Positions 1-4,990 of a stretch of DNA of 4,990 bases are shown piece by piece. The position numbers and the translations under genes were made by a program. The notes under the pieces are model-generated. The model was not told the origin of the DNA. It was given only the letters and a program-made list of their open reading frames with translations, and did no database searches. The first letter of the stretch is position 1. Each line of letters starts with the position of its first letter. The DNA lies in IMG/VR virus record IMGVR_UViG_2713896773_000012; one strand, given 5' to 3'. The stretch is from a virus (Duplodnaviria > Heunggongvirae > Uroviricota > Caudoviricetes).

Positions 1-414
1 CTGCATCAGGCTGTTTTTTGTTTCTTCCGCCTCCCGGATCCGGAACAGTTTTTCTGCTTCCGTATCCTTCACCCAGGCTGTGCCGTTCCACTTCTGAAAC
101 TCCCCTTCCGGGGATAACCAGGTGATATTTTCCGGTAGAGGTCCGAGTTCAGAAATAAATAACGAGTCGCCGGAAGCCACGTCATAGACGTTTTTTCCCC
201 GATGATCTTCAACGAGATGCCACGATGCCTCATCACTGTTGAAAACAGCCACGAAGCCTGCCGGAATATCTGGCGGTGCAATATAGGTACTGTTTGCTGG
301 CAGACCTGTATGAGGCGGAATATATGCGTCACCTTCACCAATAAATTCATTAGTTCCGGCCAGCAGATTATAAATTTTTATGGTCCGTGGTTGTTCACTC
401 ATTCTGAATGCCAT
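1..414 (-). CDS. tfa: Tail fibre assembly protein Tfa (lambda Tfa family); ATG at 414-412, 138 codons in window with no stop, 3' end beyond window start
   Basis: Manual translation of the minus strand from 414 gives [138 protein letters not shown], open to position 1. This matches lambda Tfa as I recall it. Start overlaps the upstream stop (TAATG). Not in the ORF track because no stop lies in the window. Confidence 0.85.
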
Positions 415-713
415 TACGCAAGCCTCACAATATAGTTAAATGCGATGTTTTTGACGGTGTTTTCCGCGTTACCAGCAGCGTTAACGGTGATGGTATGTCC
501 ATGTGAACCAATCGCAACGGAGTGCGTATGAGCACCAATACCGACAGTATGTGCGTGTGCACCTGCGCTTGCAGCAGTACCCGATACAGAGTGCGTATGA
601 GCGCCTGCAGAAGAAGTGTTAACACTGTATTTAGAATAATCAGGTGATCCACTTCCCGGAGCACCACTGGAACCACCTGAAACAAATGTCATCGAATGGG
701 TATGTGCACCGGC
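414..713 (-). pseudogene. Side tail fibre protein Stf, C-terminal remnant (about 100 codons) lacking its N-terminal part
   Basis: ORF-track protein 414..722 ends ...[31 protein letters not shown], the characteristic lambda Stf C-terminus, and carries (G/A)AHxHS repeats. It has no upstream Stf body: the sequence 5' of about 713 is J-derived in another frame. Boundary is approximate (about 10 bp). Confidence 0.75.
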
Positions 714-1026
714 TGTCCCCATGCATTTACCGCCCGGACTGTCAGCCTGTAATTTCCCAGCGCCAGCTGCGTGAAGCGATATGTGGTTTCCGTCGTCCGG
801 GCCGTGCTGACCAACCGCTCACTGCCGTCGTCCGCTGCCACGGTCAGGCGAAGCATAAAGCTCACCCCCTTCACCACCTTCGGCGTGTCCCAGCGCGCCA
901 GCACCTGGTATTCCCCGCTGTCTGCGGTGACTTCTGCGGTCAGGTGCTGAACTGCTGGCGGCGTGACACCATTCACCGTGCCGCTCTGGTCACCGTCAAA
1001 GTGCGCCCCGTTATCAGTTCATCCAG
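714..1026 (-). pseudogene. Host specificity protein J (central tail fibre), internal fragment of about 105 codons, no start or native stop
   Basis: Minus-strand translation reads ...[101 protein letters not shown], matching an internal stretch of lambda J. It is flanked by nu1 sequence upstream and Stf sequence downstream. Confidence 0.75.
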
Positions 1027-1518
1027 CGCGGCTGCTTTGTTCATGGCTTTGATGATATCCCGTTTCAGGAAATCAACATGTCGGTTTTCCAGTTCCGGAA
1101 AACGCCGCTGCACCGACAGGGGGATCCCGTCGAGAATACTGGCAATTTCACCTGCGATCCGCGACAGCACGAAAGTACAGAATGCGGTTTCCACCACTTC
1201 AGCGGAGTCTCTGGCATTTTTCAGCTCCTGTGCGTCGGCCTGCGCACGCGTAAGTCGATGGCGTTCGTACTCAATAGTCCCTGGCTGGAGATCTGTCTCG
1301 CTGGCCTGCCGCAGTTCTTCAACTTCCCGGCGCAGCTTTTCGTTCTCAATTTCAGCATCCCTTTCGGCATACCATTTTATGACGGCGGCAGAATCATAAA
1401 GCACCTCATTACCCTTGCCACCGCCTCGCAGAACGGGCATTCCCTGTTCCTGCCAGTTCTGAATGGTACGGATACTCGCACCGAAAATGTCAGCCAGCTG
1501 CTTTTTGTTGACTTCCAT
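973..1518 (-). CDS. nohA: Terminase small subunit Nu1 homologue (cryptic prophage Noh type); residues 1-169 Nu1-like, last 12 residues (TGRTLTVTRAAR) from out-of-frame J sequence
   Basis: ORF-track 181-aa protein MEVNKKQLADIFGASIRTIQNWQEQGMPVLRGGGKGNEVLYDSAAVIKWYAERDAEIENEKLRREVEELRQ... is near-identical to lambda Nu1 up to ...KAAALDELI, then diverges. The start lies about 190 bp downstream of cosN, as in lambda. Symbol nohA rests on Qin-like neighbours (ynfO, ydfO, gnsB, cspI); nohD/nohB of DLP12 cannot be excluded. Confidence 0.88.
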   Translation of the reverse strand: MEVNKKQLADIFGASIRTIQNWQEQGMPVLRGGGKGNEVLYDSAAVIKWYAERDAEIENEKLRREVEELRQASETDLQPGTIEYERHRLTRAQADAQELKNARDSAEVVETAFCTFVLSRIAGEIASILDGIPLSVQRRFPELENRHVDFLKRDIIKAMNKAAALDELITGRTLTVTRAAR

Positions 1519-1529
1519 TGTTCATTCCA

Positions 1530-1740
1530 CGGACAAAAACAGAGAAAGGAAACGACAAAGGCCAAAAAGCCCGCTTTCAGCACCTGTCGTTTCCTTTCTT
1601 TTCAGGGGGTATTTTAAATAAAAACATTAAGTTACGACGAAGAAGAACGGAAACACCTTAAACCGGAAAATTTTCATAAATAGCGAAAACCCGCGAGGTC
1701 GCCGCCCCGTAACCTGTCGGATCACCGGAAAGGACCCGTA
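1530..1740 (-). other. Lambda-type cos site: cosB (R1/R2/R3 gpNu1 sites and IHF site I1, about 1535-1660), cosN (12-nt cohesive end 1696-1707), cosQ region (about 1720-1740 by analogy)
   Basis: Reverse complement of 1696-1713 is GTTACG/GGGCGGCGACCT, the lambda right-end/left-end junction with the 12-nt cohesive end. Minus-strand sequence downstream reads CGCGGGTTTTCGCTATTTATGAAAATTTTCCGG... with repeated CGTTTCC(G/T)TTCT-type R elements and an A/T-rich IHF-like segment before the nu1 ATG. 1714-1906 matches the terminal 190 bp of lambda's right end as I recall it. Confidence 0.8.
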
Positions 1741-1906
1741 AAGTGATAATGATTATCATCTACATATCACAACGTGCGTGGAGGCCATCAAACCACGTCA
1801 AATAATCAATTATGACGCAGGTATCGTATTAATTGATCTGCATCAACTTAACGTAAAAACAACTTCAGACAATACAAATCAGCGACACTGAATACGGGGC
1901 AACCTC

Positions 1907-2140
1907 ATGTCAACGAAGAACAGAACCCGCAGAACAACAACCCGCAACATCCGCTTTCCTAACCAAATGATTGAACAAATTAACATCGCTCTTGAGCAAA
2001 AAGGGTCCGGGAATTTCTCAGCCTGGGTCATTGAAGCCTGCCGCCGGAGACTGTGCTCAGAAAAAAGAGTTTCTTCTGAAGCAAACAAAGAAAAGAGTGA
2101 CATTACTGAATTGCTCAGAAAACAGGTCAGACCAGATTGA
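1907..2140 (+). CDS. ynfO: Small Arc/Mnt-like ribbon-helix-helix DNA-binding protein (YnfO/YlcI-type prophage protein), 77 aa
   Basis: ORF-track 77-aa protein. The segment TRNIRFPNQMIEQINIALEQKGSGNFSAWVIEACRRRL fits the RHH pattern (beta-strand RNIRFP, helix A, G-x-S/N turn, helix B) and parallels P22 Arc (FNLRWP...ENGRSVNSEIYQRV). Symbol is assigned by position between nohA-like and ydfO-like, not by remembered sequence. Confidence 0.6.
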   Translation: MSTKNRTRRTTTRNIRFPNQMIEQINIALEQKGSGNFSAWVIEACRRRLCSEKRVSSEANKEKSDITELLRKQVRPD

Positions 2141-2197
2141 AGCAATTTAGATAATCGTGCAGACTACGCCCCCTCATATCACATGGAAGGTTTATCT

Positions 2198-2608
2198 ATG
2201 GATCAGGTAGTCATTTTTAAACAAATATTTGATAAAGTTCGAAACGATTTAAACTATCAATGGTTTTATTCTGAGCTAAAACGTCACAATGTCTCACATT
2301 ACATTTACTATTTAGCCACAGAGAATGTTCATATTGTATTAAAAAATGATAATACAGTGTTATTAAAGGGCCTAAAAAACATTGTGTCTGTCAAATTTTC
2401 AAAGGATAGGCATCTTATAGAAACGACCTCTAATAAGCTGAAATCCAGAGAGATCACATTTCAGGAATACAGAAGAAACCTTGCTAAAGCAGGAGTTTTT
2501 CGGTGGGTTACAAATATCCACGAACAAAAAAGATATTACTATACCTTTGATAATTCATTACTATTTACTGAAAGCATCCAGAAAACTACACAGATCTTAC
2601 CACGCTAA
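2198..2608 (+). CDS. ydfO: DUF1398-family prophage protein (YdfO/YbcV-like), 136 aa from the second ATG
   Basis: ORF-track ORF 2183..2608. The internal ATG at 2198 is preceded by GGAAGG (2185-2190) at 7-nt spacing, giving 136 aa ([30 protein letters not shown]...). Recognised as the YdfO/YbcV family; very AT-rich coding sequence. Confidence 0.75.
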
Positions 2609-2616
2609 ACCATAAC

Positions 2617-2645
2617 GTCCGGCTTCTCTCACTCCTGAGCCGGAC
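2617..2645 (+). terminator. GC-rich stem-loop just after the ydfO stop; candidate terminator with a poor U-tract
   Basis: Perfect 8-bp inverted repeat GTCCGGCT (2617-2624) / AGCCGGAC (2638-2645) with a 13-nt loop. The following sequence CTGCATTGGTTTAAT is only weakly T-rich. Confidence 0.35.
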
Positions 2646-2711
2646 TGCATTGGTTTAATAAAAACCATCAACAATTGTGATTTAGATATTCGGAACCATT
2701 CAAATATAACA

Positions 2712-2733
2712 AAACCCCGTAAAAACGAGGTTT
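2712..2733 (-). terminator. Rho-independent terminator downstream of gnsB (minus strand)
   Basis: Minus-strand RNA reads CCUCG-UUUUUA-CGGGG followed by UUUUGUUAUAUUU (5-bp stem including one G-U pair, then a U-tract). It lies 27 bp past the gnsB stop. On the plus strand the same stem has a C-A mismatch, so it is oriented for the minus strand. Confidence 0.55.
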
Positions 2734-2759
2734 ATGGATAAATTTTATTATTGAATACA

Positions 2760-2933
2760 TCAGATTAAATTAATCTTGACATCATAGCTTTCAAGACCCG
2801 TCATTTTTTCCCGTGCGGTAAACTGAATACTGGTAACTTCTTTCCCGGTCTTTTTCTTAAGTTCAATAATTTTTTTTGTTATATATTCAGAAATATCTGC
2901 TTCTGCTTTTGTTTTTAAGTTTTCAATATTCAT
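2760..2933 (-). CDS. gnsB: GnsA/GnsB-family small protein, 57 aa
   Basis: Manual minus-strand translation gives MNIENLKTKAEADISEYITKKIIELKKKTGKEVTSIQFTAREKMTGLESYDVKINLI, which carries the GnsA/GnsB signature (TGKEV...FTAREKMTGLESYDVKI). AGAGGA Shine-Dalgarno lies 4 nt upstream of the ATG at 2933. Below the length cut-off of the ORF track. Confidence 0.8.
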   Translation of the reverse strand: MNIENLKTKAEADISEYITKKIIELKKKTGKEVTSIQFTAREKMTGLESYDVKINLI

Positions 2934-2981
2934 CATTTCCTCTTTTAGTCTGTTATGACTTTCCAGTTACACAGTAAGTCG

Positions 2982-2987
2982 ATTATA
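2982..2987 (-). promoter_or_regulatory. Candidate sigma70 -10 hexamer (TATAAT) for gnsB
   Basis: Minus-strand sequence ...CTTATCTTTTACACGTTTGCACCATATAATCGACTTACTG... has a consensus TATAAT about 48 nt upstream of the gnsB ATG. The -35 region is weak (TTATCT/TTTACA with suboptimal spacing). Pattern-based only. Confidence 0.3.
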
Positions 2988-3104
2988 TGGTGCAAACGTG
3001 TAAAAGATAAGATGAAACATCGCAATAATCAACATACGATAGTCTAAATTTTACACAAACAGACAAAGAGAATTTTCCTGAATTATCAATGCAATAGCAT
3101 CAAA

Positions 3105-3335
3105 TCAACTCAAGAGCCTTATTGCTGCTTCCAGAATTTCTTCTGAAGTAACATGTCGATCCGCGGCTACATAAATGACTTTATGATCTCCGGTCAGAGA
3201 TGGAAACCCTGCGGCCATTACAGTAAGGTGTGTTTTTTCGCCATTTGGATATTCACGCATGATGGTGTTAACTCCAGTCATCGCTGGCACTACCACTGCT
3301 GGTTCAGAGTTAAAAAAAACTATGATTTTTTTCAT
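3105..3335 (-). CDS. ynfN: Small protein of the YnfN/YmcE family (76 aa from ATG 3335; alternative 51-aa product from ATG 3260)
   Basis: ORF-track ORF 3105..3377 begins at a non-ATG codon; the first ATG (3335) gives MKKIIVFFNSEPAVVVPAMTGVNTIMREYPNGEKTHLTVMAAGFPSLTGDHKVIYVAADRHVTSEEILEAAIRLLS. The internal ATG at 3260 has GGAG 11 nt upstream and gives 51 aa, the length I recall for K-12 YnfN. Position between gnsB and cspI mirrors the chromosomal gnsA-ymcE-cspG arrangement. Confidence 0.55.
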   Translation of the reverse strand: MKKIIVFFNSEPAVVVPAMTGVNTIMREYPNGEKTHLTVMAAGFPSLTGDHKVIYVAADRHVTSEEILEAAIRLLS

Positions 3336-3377
3336 GATGTTACCGTAGTATGTGAGTATCCATCGAATAGACACCAA

Positions 3378-3606: not shown

Positions 3607-3732
3607 TCAAAGCGCCACTACATGAACAGCGGCAGGACCTTTAGGTCCGTTCTCAATACCAAATTCAACTTCCTGATTCTCAGTTAATGTTTTGAAATCG
3701 TTGCTCTGAATTGCTGAGAAATGGACAAACAC
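3607..3732 (-). pseudogene. cspI: Cold-shock protein CspI, 3' remnant (codons 30-70 plus stop); 5' part displaced or removed by IS3
   Basis: Manual minus-strand translation from 3732 gives [41 protein letters not shown], the C-terminal two-thirds of a CspA-family protein (RNP2 motif VFVHF present, RNP1 KGFGFI absent). The reading frame runs directly into the IS3 right inverted repeat at 3733. Confidence 0.8.
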
Positions 3733-3771
3733 TGATCCTACCCACGTAATATGGACACAGGCCTAAGCGAG
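3733..3771. repeat. IS3 terminal inverted repeat at the orfB-proximal end (IRR)
   Basis: Begins TGATCC...; pairs with the 4952-4990 repeat. The orfB stop (3763-3765) lies inside it. Confidence 0.85.
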
Positions 3772-4629
3772 GTTCTTGTTTTCAAATTGTTCCGGACTGA
3801 GGCCGCCACACCAACTGTGCCGCCGCCACCGATTGTAATCACATTCGATATAATTAAACACCGTTGCCCGCATTATTTCCCGGCTGATAAAGTGTTCTCC
3901 ATGGATACATTCCACTTTCAGCGAATGAAAGAAGCTTTCCACGCAGGCATTATCGTAGCAGCAACCTTTTGCGCTCATACTTCCACGCAGATTATGCCGC
4001 TTCAGTTGCGCCTGATAATCTGCTGAACAGTACTGGCCTCCACGGTCCGTGTGAACGATAACGTTCCGGGGCCTCTTACGCCGCCACAGCGCCATCTGCA
4101 GGGCATCGCAGGCCAGTTGCGCCGTCATGCGTGGCGACATTGACCAGCCAATAACGGCACGTGACCACAGGTCAATGACCACTGCCAGATACAGCCAGCC
4201 TTCATCTGTACGTAAGTACGTGATGTCTCCTGCCCACTTCTGGTTCGGGCCACTGGCGTAAAAATCCTGCTCCAACAGATTTTCTGACACAGGCAGGCCG
4301 TGTGCGCGGTAGCTGACCGGGCTGAACTTCCGGGAGGCCTTTGCCCTCAGTCCCTGACGGCGCAGGCTTGCCGCCACGGTTTTTACGTTAAAGGGGTAAC
4401 CCTGAGCACGCAGTTCATCCGTCAGGCGTGGGGCACCGTAACGCTGTTTTGACCGGGTAAAAGCCGCGAGGACAACGCTGTCGCAGTGTTGGCGGAACTG
4501 CTGACGCGTGCTTATCCTTGTCCGCCGCTGACACCACGTATACCAGCCGCTGCGGGCCACCCGGAGCACGCGGCACATTGCTTTGATGCTGAACTCAGCC
4601 TGATGTTTTTCAATAAAGACATACTTCAT
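3763..4629 (-). CDS. insF: IS3 transposase OrfB (InsF), 288 aa, DDE catalytic domain; expressed mainly as an OrfAB fusion by -1 frameshifting
   Basis: ORF-track 288-aa protein [36 protein letters not shown]... with DDE context motifs ([29 protein letters not shown]). The ATG overlaps the orfA stop (ATGA) in the -1 frame. Confidence 0.95.
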
Positions 4630-4925
4630 TTCAGGCGCTTCGCGAAGTATGTCGCGGCCTTTTGGAGGATAGCCAGCTCTTCATCCCGTTCTGCCAGCTG
4701 GCGTTTGAGACGTGCAATCTCGGTAGACATCTCCAGTTCACGTTCAGAAGACGTCTGCTGATTTTGCTGTTTACTGCGCCAGTTGTAGAGTTGTGATTCA
4801 TACAGGCTGAGTTCACGGGCTGCGGCAGTAACACCGATGCGTTCAGCAAGCTTCAGGGCTTCACTGCGAAATTCAGGCGAATGCTGTTTACGGGGTTTTT
4901 TACTGGTTGATACTGTTTTTGTCAT
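4626..4925 (-). CDS. insE: IS3 transposase OrfA (InsE), 99 aa, helix-turn-helix/leucine-zipper subunit
   Basis: ORF-track protein (MTH)[102 protein letters not shown] at 4925 is preceded by GAGGTGA; the track start at 4934 is a GTG. Confidence 0.93.
4669..4673 (-). other. Programmed -1 ribosomal frameshift slippery site (A-AAG) for the OrfAB transposase
   Basis: Minus-strand sequence CTC CAA AAG GCC (L-Q-K-A in the orfA frame) contains A AAA G, 43-47 nt upstream of the orfA stop. The IS3 family is known to use an A-AAG shift followed by downstream structure. Confidence 0.6.
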
Positions 4926-4951
4926 GTGAGTCACCTCTGACTGAGAGTTTA

Positions 4952-4990
4952 CTCACTTAGCCGCGTGTCCACTATTGCTGGGTAAGATCA
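4952..4990. repeat. IS3 terminal inverted repeat at the orfA-proximal end (IRL)
   Basis: Reverse complement reads TGATCTTACCCAGCAATAGTGGACACGCGGCTAAGTGAG, an imperfect match to 3733-3771. Confidence 0.85.

What the first reader, a model, noticed from the sequence alone, without database searches (positions are those of the whole stretch)
1907..2608. Arc-like RHH protein (ynfO) immediately upstream of a DUF1398 protein (ydfO): candidate two-gene regulatory or toxin-antitoxin-like module
YnfO-like has a clear ribbon-helix-helix signature (RNIRFP strand, helix, GSGNFS turn, AWVIEACRRRL helix) resembling P22 Arc/Mnt and RHH antitoxins. It sits 57 bp upstream of, and co-oriented with, the DUF1398 gene, in the cargo slot between the lysis genes and cos where lambdoid phages carry host-interaction genes. 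Neither protein has an established function as far as I know. A small DNA-binding protein followed by a larger partner is the usual antitoxin-toxin or repressor-effector layout. A weak direct repeat CAACTT (1844-1849 and 1860-1865) lies upstream of ynfO.
Basis: partly seen in the sequence, partly recalled or inferred. Interest (0 to 1): 0.5.

Follow-up and report, generated by a model that had tools for sequence, protein, structure and literature searches.

The report
Phage RHH gene beside unrelated cargo gene
The two genes are the already annotated prophage genes ynfO and ydfO: ynfO probably encodes a small Arc-like DNA-binding regulator that sits next to the packaging site of lambda-like phages, but it is not a conserved partner, and almost certainly not an antitoxin, of ydfO.

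Summary
ynfO (1907-2140, 77 aa) and ydfO (2198-2608, 136 aa) lie 57 bp apart on the + strand, right of cos in a Qin-like lambdoid prophage of E. coli. Both are annotated genes of unknown function (DUF3950/YlcI-YnfO; DUF1398 = PDB 2HH8).

The ribbon-helix-helix reading of YnfO is supported but not statistically proven. It rests on the predicted strand-helix-helix layout, weak structure matches that are mostly RHH proteins, an hhalign register matching Arc, and satellite relatives preceded by operator-like palindromes.

The two-gene or toxin-antitoxin reading is not supported:
- YnfO relatives occur in 155 phage records, DUF1398 in 43.
- None of 38 non-Escherichia YnfO loci carries DUF1398.
- K-12 ycgX is a DUF1398 gene with no RHH neighbour.
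- The tight spacing is specific to the Qin type. A 54-bp joint replaces 613 bp present in lambda, and it creates the YnfO tail.
- ydfO keeps its own upstream region, with a published PdhR site.

A published, perfect Fur box (1744-1758) lies between cos and ynfO.

Leads: some satellites fuse this RHH domain to a terminase small-subunit DNA-binding domain, and the lambda reference record leaves its copy of this ORF unannotated.

Verdict: known genes, modest interest.

The parts
1696..1707 (.). Context: the lambda-type cohesive end (cosN). Mature lambda left-end base 1 corresponds to 1707 and the right-end base to 1708.
   Evidence: The window matches the lambda-like right end from 1708 onward at 98%. 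The lambda left-end sequence GGGCGGCGACCT is read on the - strand (plus my own knowledge of the lambda sequence).
1731..1737 (.). Context: cosQ (AGGACCC, the complement of GGGTCCT, lambda 48473-48479).
   Evidence: Sequence and coordinates converted through. The identity as cosQ rests on my own knowledge of the lambda literature and was not tested here.
1744..1758 (.). Fur box TGATAATGATTATCA, a perfect 7-1-7 inverted repeat, 149-163 bp upstream of the ynfO ATG and 233 bp upstream of nohA. A weak + strand promoter candidate has its -10 (TATCAT, 1754-1759) inside the box.
   Evidence: One match against 0.02 expected. It coincides with the published nohA Fur site at -233, which was found by Fur titration and confirmed by gel shift (PMC2189734). 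In the other lambda-type loci only the unconstrained central base varies. Promoter candidate.
1805..1837 (.). Imperfect inverted repeat ATCAATTATGACG / CGTATTAATTGAT, 70-100 bp upstream of ynfO. A weak candidate operator.
   Evidence: 13-nt arms, 85% complementary. The surrounding ATCAA cluster gives p of about 0.02, tested after the fact. It is not conserved in non-lambda contexts. Unproven.
1907..2140 (+). ynfO coding sequence, 77 aa, YlcI/YnfO (DUF3950) family.
   Evidence: 1077 relatives were found, and 1217 with the profile.
1943..2056 (+). Predicted RHH core, residues 13-50: strand R-N-I-R-F, helix A 19-32, turn GSGN, helix B from residue 37. It is 100% identical to lambda up to about codon 48.
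   Evidence: AF2 block-mean pLDDT of 68 to 88 over residues 11-50. Family-invariant I15 R16 F17 N36 F37 S38 W40 V41 A44 C45. RHH-dominated structure matches. Arc register. Identity to lambda.
2070..2123 (+). Qin-type joint. These 54 bp stand in place of 613 bp of lambda (the lambda YlcI tail plus p79/ybcW on the other strand). They encode most of the YnfO C-terminal tail.
   Evidence: Pairwise alignment of the window with the lambda-like locus L002: 1708-2069 at 98%, then 2124-2627 at 84%. Tails are mosaic among relatives.
2119..2135 (.). PdhR-box-like palindrome AACAGGTCAGACCAGAT. It overlaps the last ynfO codons and lies upstream of ydfO. It is followed by a -10 candidate GATAAT at 2150-2155.
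   Evidence: Published gSELEX site in K-12, listed for the ynfO>ydfO spacer, with the equivalent site before ybcV. ybcV mRNA is 10-fold lower in a pdhR deletion (PMC7660256). The site is conserved before lambda p78.
2198..2608 (+). ydfO coding sequence, 136 aa (alternative start at 2183 gives 141 aa), DUF1398. The structure is solved (2HH8); the function is unknown.
2617..2645 (+). GC-rich hairpin GTCCGGCT...AGCCGGAC just after ydfO. Possibly the end of the ydfO transcript. It is followed by a convergent gnsB terminator on the - strand (2733-2712).
   Evidence: Inverted repeat I12, terminator scan, conserved after lambda p78.

Best explanation
ynfO and ydfO are two independent accessory genes of lambda-type phages. 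In the Qin lineage a local replacement placed them side by side.

YnfO is most likely a small dimeric ribbon-helix-helix DNA-binding protein. It has a basic N-terminal arm, a strand (R13-F17) that would pair with its twin and enter the major groove, two helices, and a dispensable mosaic tail. I infer that it acts as a sequence-specific transcription regulator, most probably repressing its own leftward promoter in the cos-proximal region. That promoter may also be under Fur control.

YdfO is a separate DUF1398 cargo gene with its own Shine-Dalgarno sequence, its own conserved upstream region carrying a PdhR site, and a candidate -10.

Shown here or in the cited literature: family membership, gene layout, lack of conserved pairing, the origin of the junction, and the presence of the Fur and PdhR sites. 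Inferred: the RHH fold (about 0.8), DNA binding and autoregulation (about 0.5), and independent transcription of ydfO (about 0.6).
For: RHH fold:
- The AF2 layout fits strand-helix-helix.
- About 30 of the 39 Foldseek PDB matches are RHH proteins, including NikA, NikR, Arc, MazE9, ParD2, PutA, CopA and MatP.
- Named BFVD hits are mostly RHH proteins.
- hhalign gives the Arc register with P = 0.002.
- The invariant residues fall on the strand and on the N-cap of helix B.

Regulator role for the family:
- In satellite (PICI/HES-like) loci the YnfO-like gene is preceded by three copies of a locus-specific palindrome GTG-N6-CAC, at about -100, -77 and -31.
- These copies bracket a TTGAC and a TATAGT element.
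- The palindrome core changes together with the residues just before K-x-IRF. Examples: STTKG with GTGCAYAWACAC in 11 loci, a lysine at the position matching YnfO residue 12 (STKKG, SAKKN) with TGTGCGCACA, Y or L at that position with GTTTAAAC, and SAKKH with GTGTGAACCCAC.

Independence of the two genes:
- YnfO occurs in 155 phage records and DUF1398 in 43.
- 0 of 38 non-Escherichia YnfO loci has DUF1398 within the roughly 8-kb locus. The HMM used finds the 44%-identical YcgX at E = 1e-44.
- ycgX has no RHH neighbour.
- In lambda and DLP12 the two genes are 530-650 bp apart with an opposite-strand gene between them.
- In Stx phage YYZ-2008 the RHH gene stands alone between Rz and HNH-TerS-TerL and has its own terminator.

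Junction: the Qin type carries 54 bp where lambda carries 613 bp.

Own control of ydfO: PdhR site, a GATAAT -10 candidate, and the region is conserved before lambda p78.

Fur site.
Against: - The strand is not formed in the monomer model, and a dimer could not be modelled.
- No operator was identified for the lambda/Qin type. The 1805-1837 repeat and the ATCAA cluster are weak.
- The strict scan finds no sigma-70 promoter in 1500-3000, so expression of ynfO is not demonstrated.
- The operator covariation comes from linked sequences in related satellites and is not corrected for shared descent. Another regulator could bind those palindromes.
- No terminator separates ynfO from ydfO, so read-through co-transcription in Qin remains possible.
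Confidence: 0.55

Rival explanations
1. Type II toxin-antitoxin pair. YnfO would be an RHH antitoxin that represses the operon and neutralises YdfO through its C-terminal tail. YdfO would be a growth-inhibiting toxin.
For: - The layout is small RHH gene first, larger gene second, on the same strand, 57 bp apart.
- No terminator lies between the genes.
- A rare natural allele fuses the two ORFs (P0318, TGA to TGG).
Against: - Pairing is not conserved in either direction.
- The tail is mosaic and is created by a Qin-specific joint. The same DUF1398 family is found next to different tails, 530-650 bp away with a gene between.
- No toxin, antitoxin or defence model matches YdfO.
- YdfO was solved as an isolated protein by NMR (2HH8), and a ybcV overexpression clone was scored in a stationary-phase screen. 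This is weak evidence against acute toxicity.
- ydfO has its own regulatory region.
Confidence: 0.04
2. Repressor-effector operon specific to the Qin arrangement. YnfO represses a promoter upstream of itself, and ydfO is expressed mainly by read-through from it, so the two genes are coupled in regulation but not in protein function.
For: - The genes share a strand, with no predicted terminator between them.
- A weak Fur-box-overlapping promoter candidate reads toward ynfO.
- The arrangement is stable in active phages (PhiR42_1, Kati, Chlobot) and in at least 120 viral contigs.
Against: - ydfO keeps the upstream region it has in lambda and DLP12, where it is not adjacent to the RHH gene. That region holds a PdhR site and a 5/6 -10 hexamer.
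- The juxtaposition arose by a local replacement.
- There are no transcript data.
Confidence: 0.2
3. Packaging-linked factor. YnfO would bind DNA beside cos, or work with the terminase small subunit, modulating cos recognition or cleavage, or protecting the prophage cos, rather than regulating cargo genes.
For: - The gene is the first gene on the lysis-gene side of the packaging module in two unrelated terminase systems: lambda cos-Nu1-A and HNH-TerS-TerL of Stx phages, where it starts 41 bp from HNH.
- Satellites encode complete 120-129 aa proteins that join this RHH domain to the N-terminal DNA-binding domain of Terminase_2 TerS, 66% identical to the helper-type TerS. This recalls how the PICI protein Rpp mimics the TerS DNA-binding domain (PMC6739421).
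- DNA from cos through codon 48 is 100% identical between lambda and Qin.
Against: - The lysis-packaging junction is also the usual insertion point for accessory genes, so position alone is weak evidence.
- The gene is antisense to late transcription, which is odd for a packaging factor.
- Most satellite homologues sit by int/alpA with operator-like repeats, which suggests a regulator.
- The identity to lambda may simply reflect recent recombination.
- Minimal cos function is not known to need this ORF (my own knowledge).
Confidence: 0.15

Closest known systems
P22 Arc / Mnt repressors (RHH, MetJ/Arc/CopG superfamily)
   Same: Small phage protein. The N-terminal arm, the N-[IL]-R-[FW]-P strand, helix, a G-x-x-x-x-S turn and a second helix are all present. 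hhalign places the YnfO strand in register with Arc residues 6-30. Arc structures appear among the Foldseek matches.
   Different: Sequence similarity is not significant, and no Pfam or PDB profile link was found. YnfO lies next to cos, not in an immunity region. It has a longer basic arm and a mosaic C-terminal tail. No operator is known.
RHH antitoxins of the ParD/CopG type (e.g. PDB 5CEG chain A)
   Different: There is no conserved toxin partner. The tail is not conserved and arose from a junction. The downstream gene is not a known toxin family.
Lambda accessory ('moron') genes bor and lom
   Same: Same region between the lysis genes and cos, and the same orientation antisense to late transcription. 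In lambda and ev243 the RHH gene, DUF1398 and bor all read leftward. These are candidates for expression in the lysogen.
   Different: bor and lom encode outer-membrane proteins with known phenotypes. YnfO and YdfO are cytoplasmic-looking proteins with no phenotype. Their expression in lysogens was not assessed here.
Rpp of E. coli PICIs (redirecting phage packaging)
   Same: A satellite-encoded small protein that copies the TerS DNA-binding domain. The satellite chimeras P0208 and P0190 carry such a domain fused to a YnfO-type RHH.
   Different: Rpp is a winged helix-turn-helix plus a coiled coil, not an RHH (PMC6739421). The YnfO of this window has no TerS-like part.
YbcV (DLP12), YcgX and lambda p78, the DUF1398 paralogues
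   Same: YdfO is 79% identical to YbcV and to lambda p78, and 44% identical to YcgX. The upstream PdhR-type palindrome is shared.
   Different: Only the Qin type lies directly after the RHH gene. The labels 'head protein' and 'envelope protein' attached to these proteins have no experimental basis that I could find.

Membership tests
YlcI/YnfO family (Pfam DUF3950, NCBIfam NF041551) | Score above the curated cut-offs of the family models | tested here: met
   PF13132 at 75.6 bits (cut-off 25) and NF041551 at 36.6 bits (cut-off 30). RefSeq names the same protein YlcI/YnfO family.
DUF1398 (Pfam PF07166) | Score above the curated cut-off, and identity with the solved family member | tested here: met
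   157.5 bits (cut-off 22). 140 of 141 residues identical to PDB 2HH8 'hypothetical protein ydfO'.
Ribbon-helix-helix (MetJ/Arc/CopG) superfamily | Strand-helix-helix topology of about 45 residues, with the strand at the N-terminus | tested here: met
   AF2 gives extended residues 1-18, helix 19-32 and a helix from residue 37, with block-mean pLDDT of 68 to 88 over residues 11-50. The strand is not called in a monomer, which is expected for a strand that pairs only in the dimer.
Ribbon-helix-helix (MetJ/Arc/CopG) superfamily | Conserved turn and N-cap at the start of helix B (a G-x-[ST]-x-x-[ST]-like motif), and alternating polar and hydrophobic residues in the strand | tested here: met
   GSGNFS with N36, F37 and S38 invariant. 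I15, R16 and F17 are invariant across 51 diverse members. The Arc register is found by hhalign.
Ribbon-helix-helix (MetJ/Arc/CopG) superfamily | Statistically significant sequence or structure similarity to a solved RHH protein | tested here: inconclusive
Ribbon-helix-helix (MetJ/Arc/CopG) superfamily | Obligate dimer with an antiparallel two-stranded ribbon that binds repeated operator half-sites | not testable with these tools
   No multimer prediction is available. Indirect support only: triple, locus-specific palindromes precede satellite homologues and co-vary with strand residues.
Type II toxin-antitoxin system | Antitoxin and toxin genes co-occur as a conserved pair across genomes | tested here: not met
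   155 against 43 phage records. 0 of 38 non-Escherichia YnfO loci has DUF1398. ycgX has no RHH neighbour. The Stx-phage homologue stands alone.
Type II toxin-antitoxin system | The antitoxin has a conserved toxin-binding region that co-varies with its toxin | tested here: not met
   Sequence after residue 50 is mosaic among close relatives. In this window it is encoded by a 54-bp Qin-specific joint plus the ydfO upstream region.
Type II toxin-antitoxin system | The second gene belongs to a toxin family or inhibits growth when expressed alone | tested here: inconclusive
   No toxin or defence model matches. The isolated protein was solved by NMR, and the ybcV overexpression clone gave only a glycogen phenotype.
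Type II toxin-antitoxin system | A single autoregulated operon, with genes overlapping or a few bases apart | tested here: inconclusive
   57-nt spacer, a separate Shine-Dalgarno, a separate candidate -10 and a PdhR site before ydfO. On the other hand, no terminator lies between the genes.
Rpp (PICI packaging redirection) | Winged helix-turn-helix domain that mimics the TerS DNA-binding domain | tested here: not met
   The YnfO model has no such domain. Rpp is described as wHTH plus a dimerisation domain. Only the satellite chimeras P0208 and P0190 carry a TerS-like domain.

The most novel reading that the evidence does not exclude
YnfO-family RHH proteins might be cos- or terminase-linked DNA-binding factors rather than ordinary cargo regulators. 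Lambda-type and HNH-type cos phages keep the gene as the immediate neighbour of the packaging module. Helper-embedded or PICI-like satellites have fused the same RHH domain to a copy of the helper TerS DNA-binding domain, which could be a new Rpp-like way of redirecting packaging. A related option is that the published 'nohA' Fur box really controls a leftward, iron-responsive ynfO (and downstream cargo) transcript in lysogens.
Probability: 0.12. Interest if true: 0.7.

Novelty: new member of a known kind. Interest (0 to 1): 0.3.

Why it matters
YnfO/YlcI and DUF1398 are among the conserved open reading frames of phage lambda and of the E. coli K-12 prophages that still have no function. The lambda reference record shows no feature over its copy of the RHH ORF (hit in NC_001416.1).

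Placing YnfO in the ribbon-helix-helix class gives a concrete, cheap experiment: does it bind DNA next to cos, and which DNA? Removing the toxin-antitoxin idea saves effort.

If the packaging-linked reading were right, it would add a new player to cos recognition and to satellite piracy. If the Fur reading were right, it would change the assignment of a textbook Fur site from nohA to a lysogen-expressed transcript. As things stand, the finding is a sensible annotation refinement of known genes.

Tried and rejected
- Sequence and profile searches of YnfO against PDB found no RHH protein. The fold call therefore rests on weaker evidence.
- The AlphaFold2 model of YdfO came from a shallow alignment (all relatives above 70% identity) and failed, with pLDDT 46.5. 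No fold search was run on it. The AFDB library was not available.
- Programmed read-through or a YnfO-YdfO fusion: the two ORFs share a frame and the spacer is open in this window. However, TGA is kept in 120 of 120 sampled viral contigs, and 19 of them have an in-frame stop in the spacer and 3 a frameshift. The fused protein P0318 is a rare TGA-to-TGG allele. Rejected as a designed feature.
- The CAACTT repeat is chance.
- The ATCAA/TTGAT cluster upstream of ynfO gives p of about 0.02 but was picked after the fact. Two 9-mers shared with the Stx-phage locus are not significant.
- PADLOC has no defence model for any of the four small genes tested.
- Rfam finds no RNA family in the window or near satellite homologues.
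- The claimed phenotype 'YdfO overexpression increases oxidative-stress resistance' (PMC4077768) cites Wang et al. 2010. That paper names yfdO of CPS-53 and never mentions ydfO. This is a gene-name mix-up, so it was discarded.
- Rpp as the identity of YnfO is rejected, because the fold differs.
Full report
**What is in the window**

The 4990 bases are a Qin-like defective lambdoid prophage of E. coli. The best match is 99.6% to strain P377, and parts of the window are found in 5395 of 5426 complete E. coli genomes. From left to right:
- tail-fibre remnants on the - strand;
- nohA, the lambda Nu1 homologue, at 973-1518 (-);
- the lambda cos region;
- ynfO at 1907-2140 (+);
- ydfO at 2198-2608 (+);
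- gnsB at 2760-2936 (-);
- ynfN at 3105-3344 (-);
- a cspI remnant at 3607-3732 (-), followed directly by an IS3 copy.

Alignment to a lambda-type phage fixes the mature chromosome ends at 1707/1708. ynfO is therefore the first gene on the lysis-gene side of cos, and it reads against the direction of late transcription.

**Check of the observation**

- the 77-aa ORF with RNIRFP, GSGNFS and AWVIEACRRRL;
- the DUF1398 ORF on the same strand;
- a 57-nt spacer to the ATG at 2198, which has a GGAAGG ribosome-binding site and is the RefSeq start. The 141-aa form from 2183 is the construct solved as PDB 2HH8, identical at 140 of 141 positions.

Both genes are annotated under these names. Both pass curated family cut-offs, DUF3950/YlcI_YnfO_N and DUF1398. 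Both were still listed as uncharacterised in 2024. The CAACTT repeat is no more than chance, at 4 copies against 3.7 expected.

**Is YnfO a ribbon-helix-helix protein?**

The family is small and confined mostly to Enterobacterales phages, prophages and satellites. There are 120 representatives at 50% identity among 1.8 billion proteins and 1217 members with a profile.

Across 51 diverse members, I15, R16, F17, N36, F37, S38, W40, V41, A44 and C45 are invariant. These fall on the proposed strand, on the N-cap of helix B and in its core.

AlphaFold2 with that alignment gives an extended N-terminus, helix 19-32, a four-residue turn and a helix from residue 37. Block-mean pLDDT is 68 to 88 over residues 11-50 and about 60 in the tail.

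Structure and profile comparisons:
- Foldseek against the PDB gives no significant match (all E above 1). About 30 of the 39 listed are RHH proteins: NikA, HicB, NikR, MazE9, Arc (1b28, 1bdv), MatP, KacA, VapB, CdbA, ParD2, PutA and CopA.
- The named BFVD hits are again mostly RHH.
- hhalign of the family profile against Arc aligns residues 9-33 with Arc 6-30, so that N14-I15-R16-F17-P18 falls on Arc N11-L12-R13-W14-P15, with P = 0.002.
- Profile searches against PDB sequences find nothing. Pfam RHH_1 is touched by one member at E = 0.24.

I rate the RHH fold at about 0.8. The pattern is coherent, but no single test is significant and the dimer could not be modelled.

**Evidence that the family binds operators**

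In 30-odd non-Escherichia loci the YnfO-like gene lies in integrase/AlpA/Bro-N/primase elements that look like PICI or helper-embedded satellites (PMC13612085; bioRxiv 2022.07.18.500453).

Immediately upstream there are typically three copies of a palindrome GTG-N6-CAC, at about -100, -77 and -31. The second copy is followed by GTCAA, which is TTGAC on the other strand. The third copy follows TATAGT.

The palindrome core is the same in the copies of one locus but differs between loci, and it tracks the residues preceding K-x-IRF:
- STTKG goes with GTGCAYAWACAC (11 loci);
- a lysine at the position matching YnfO residue 12 (STKKG, SAKKN) goes with TGTGCGCACA;
- Y or L at that position goes with GTTTAAAC;
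- SAKKH goes with GTGTGAACCCAC.

These are the positions that read bases in Arc-type ribbons. This is the behaviour of an autoregulated repressor and its operators. However, gene and upstream DNA are inherited together, the loci are related, and another regulator could be responsible, so I treat it as supportive only.

For the lambda/Qin type no operator was found. The 1805-1837 inverted repeat and an ATCAA cluster (p about 0.02, chosen after the fact) are weak. Nothing is shared convincingly with the Stx-phage context, which has the same strand residues.

**Is it a two-gene module?**

The evidence says no.
- In the phage collection, YnfO relatives occur in 155 records and DUF1398 in 43, all of the 43 being lambda-like Escherichia phages.
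- In the 38 non-Escherichia YnfO loci, no DUF1398 and no Nu1 are found anywhere in the roughly 8-kb loci. The HMM used detects the 44%-identical YcgX at E = 1e-44.
- K-12 has three DUF1398 genes. ydfO lies directly after ynfO. ybcV lies 656 bp after ylcI, with ybcW on the other strand between them, as in lambda. ycgX has no RHH gene nearby.
- In Stx phage YYZ-2008 the RHH gene stands alone. It starts 41 bp from the divergent HNH-TerS-TerL genes and is followed by its own hairpin and T-run.
- In ev243 it is followed by a small ORF and bor.

**How the Qin juxtaposition arose**

The window is 98% identical to lambda from 1708 to 2069, and 100% identical up to about codon 48 of ynfO. From 2124 to 2627 it is 84% identical. 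The 613 bp that lambda has in between (its own YlcI tail and p79/ybcW) are represented here by 54 bp at 2070-2123.

The YnfO tail is therefore encoded by this joint plus the first bases of the conserved region upstream of the DUF1398 gene. The tails of close relatives are likewise a mosaic. This is the opposite of what a toxin-binding antitoxin tail should look like.

**ydfO has its own control region**

The segment 2124-2197 is conserved before lambda p78 and before ybcV. It holds the palindrome GGTCAGACC, which a gSELEX study lists as a PdhR site in both K-12 copies. ybcV mRNA falls 10-fold in a pdhR mutant (PMC7660256). A 5/6 -10 hexamer, GATAAT at 2150-2155, follows the site.

No terminator is predicted between the genes, so read-through in this arrangement cannot be excluded.

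**Toxicity and phenotypes**

No toxin, antitoxin or defence model matches either protein. YdfO was solved as an isolated protein by NMR, and the ybcV ASKA clone gave only a glycogen phenotype.

Other literature offers expression changes only: induction of ydfO by an ionic liquid and of ybcV by sabinene adaptation or T4 MotB.

The one functional claim, that YdfO protects against oxidative stress (PMC4077768), cites a paper that names yfdO of CPS-53 and never mentions ydfO. It is a gene-name mix-up.

**Regulatory DNA between cos and ynfO**

TGATAATGATTATCA at 1744-1758 is a perfect 7-1-7 Fur box, with one match against 0.02 expected. It coincides with the published 'nohA' Fur site at -233, which was identified by Fur titration and confirmed by gel shift (PMC2189734). 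In the other lambda-type loci only the free central base varies.

The site was assigned to nohA. It lies closer to ynfO (149 bp) than to nohA (233 bp, with cos in between). The best + strand promoter candidate in the region has its -10 (TATCAT) inside the box. Which gene Fur controls is open.

**A lead toward packaging**

Two complete satellite proteins, P0208 (120 aa, seen on many contigs) and P0190 (129 aa), join a YnfO-type RHH to the first ~50 residues of a Terminase_2 small subunit. That segment is 66% identical to the N-terminus of the helper-type TerS.

In locus L170 the satellite is embedded beside a prophage HNH-TerS region that has its own divergent YnfO gene. [quoted passage not shown]

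Together with the constant position of the gene at the edge of two unrelated packaging modules, this keeps a packaging-linked role alive, at about 0.15.

**Verdict**

- The RHH interpretation is probably right.
- The toxin-antitoxin or obligate-pair interpretation is not supported.
- The genes are known, and the fold assignment adds an uncharacterised branch to a known class.
- Interest is modest. It is raised a little because lambda itself carries the ORF unannotated in its reference record, and because of the Fur-site and satellite-chimera leads.

Noticed in passing
window 1744-1758: A perfect Fur 7-1-7 box (TGATAATGATTATCA) lies between cosQ and ynfO. It is the published 'nohA' Fur site, but it is nearer to ynfO, and a weak + strand -10 lies inside it. 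In related lambda-type loci only the central base varies.
   Followed up: partly
window 2119-2135 and 2150-2155: A PdhR-box-like palindrome (published gSELEX site) overlaps the last ynfO codons, and a GATAAT -10 candidate follows it. Both are conserved upstream of lambda p78 and DLP12 ybcV, which suggests that DUF1398 genes have their own PdhR-influenced promoter.
   Followed up: partly
window 2138-2200; protein P0318: ynfO and ydfO share a reading frame, and the spacer has no stop in this window. A rare allele (TGA to TGG) encodes a 233-aa YnfO-YdfO fusion. All 120 sampled viral contigs keep TGA, 19 have a stop in the spacer and 3 a frameshift, so this is not a conserved read-through design.
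   Followed up: yes
window 2760-2936 (-) and 3105-3344 (-): gnsB matches the Pfam family 'GnsA/GnsB toxin of toxin-antitoxin system', and RefSeq calls it an addiction-module toxin. ynfN lies next to it. The only toxin-annotated gene in the window is therefore this one, convergent with ydfO.
   Followed up: no
window 3607-4990: cspI is represented only by its C-terminal 41 codons and is followed directly by an IS3 copy (orfA/orfB at 4934-3763, - strand) that runs to the end of the window. In strain P377 cspI is intact and the IS3 lies beyond the lysis genes, so this window carries a different rearrangement.
   Followed up: partly
window 414-1020: Only fragments of the tail-tip J and tail-fibre genes follow nohA. 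The whole head and tail gene block between Nu1 and J is missing, and the 181-aa nohA ORF overlaps the J-related remnant, so its C-terminal end is probably not native.
   Followed up: no
L170 3590-4363 (also L171-L174): Satellites next to int/alpA carry two tandem YnfO-like genes, each with its own set of upstream palindromes. The second is fused to a copy of the helper TerS N-terminal DNA-binding domain (66% identity). This may be an Rpp-like packaging hijack that has not been described for this domain.
   Followed up: partly
L044-L083, about 150 bp upstream of each YnfO-like gene: There are three copies of a locus-specific palindrome GTG-N6-CAC, with a conserved TTGAC (opposite strand) and a TATAGT. 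The layout resembles a divergent switch region, and the palindrome core co-varies with the RHH strand residues.
   Followed up: partly
proteins P0014-P0120; loci L010-L040, L057, L064: Many 'homologues' come from lambda DNA in unrelated assemblies (Staphylococcus, Bacillus, Streptomyces, a spider, candidate-phylum genome bins). They are often error-rich contigs of about 3.5 kb, the size of the lambda-derived nanopore control fragment (the link to that control is from my own knowledge). They inflate family counts and produce false tail variants.
   Followed up: no
NC_001416.1 48142-48303 (lambda reference), hit H102: The lambda reference record shows no annotated feature over its 64-aa YlcI/YnfO-type ORF, although other lambda-like records annotate it.
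   Followed up: no
annotation of DUF1398 proteins (phrog_413, lambda p78, RefSeq phage records): DUF1398 proteins are labelled 'head protein' or 'putative envelope protein' in phage databases. I found no experimental basis for either label, and they look like propagated annotation.
   Followed up: partly
literature: PMC4077768 citing PMC3105296: The statement that YdfO overexpression raises oxidative-stress resistance is a confusion with yfdO of prophage CPS-53. The cited paper never mentions ydfO.
   Followed up: yes
window 1500-3000: The strict sigma-70 scan finds no promoter-like site in this 1.5-kb stretch, against 4.1 +/- 1.9 in shuffles, even though it contains four or five gene starts.
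   Followed up: no
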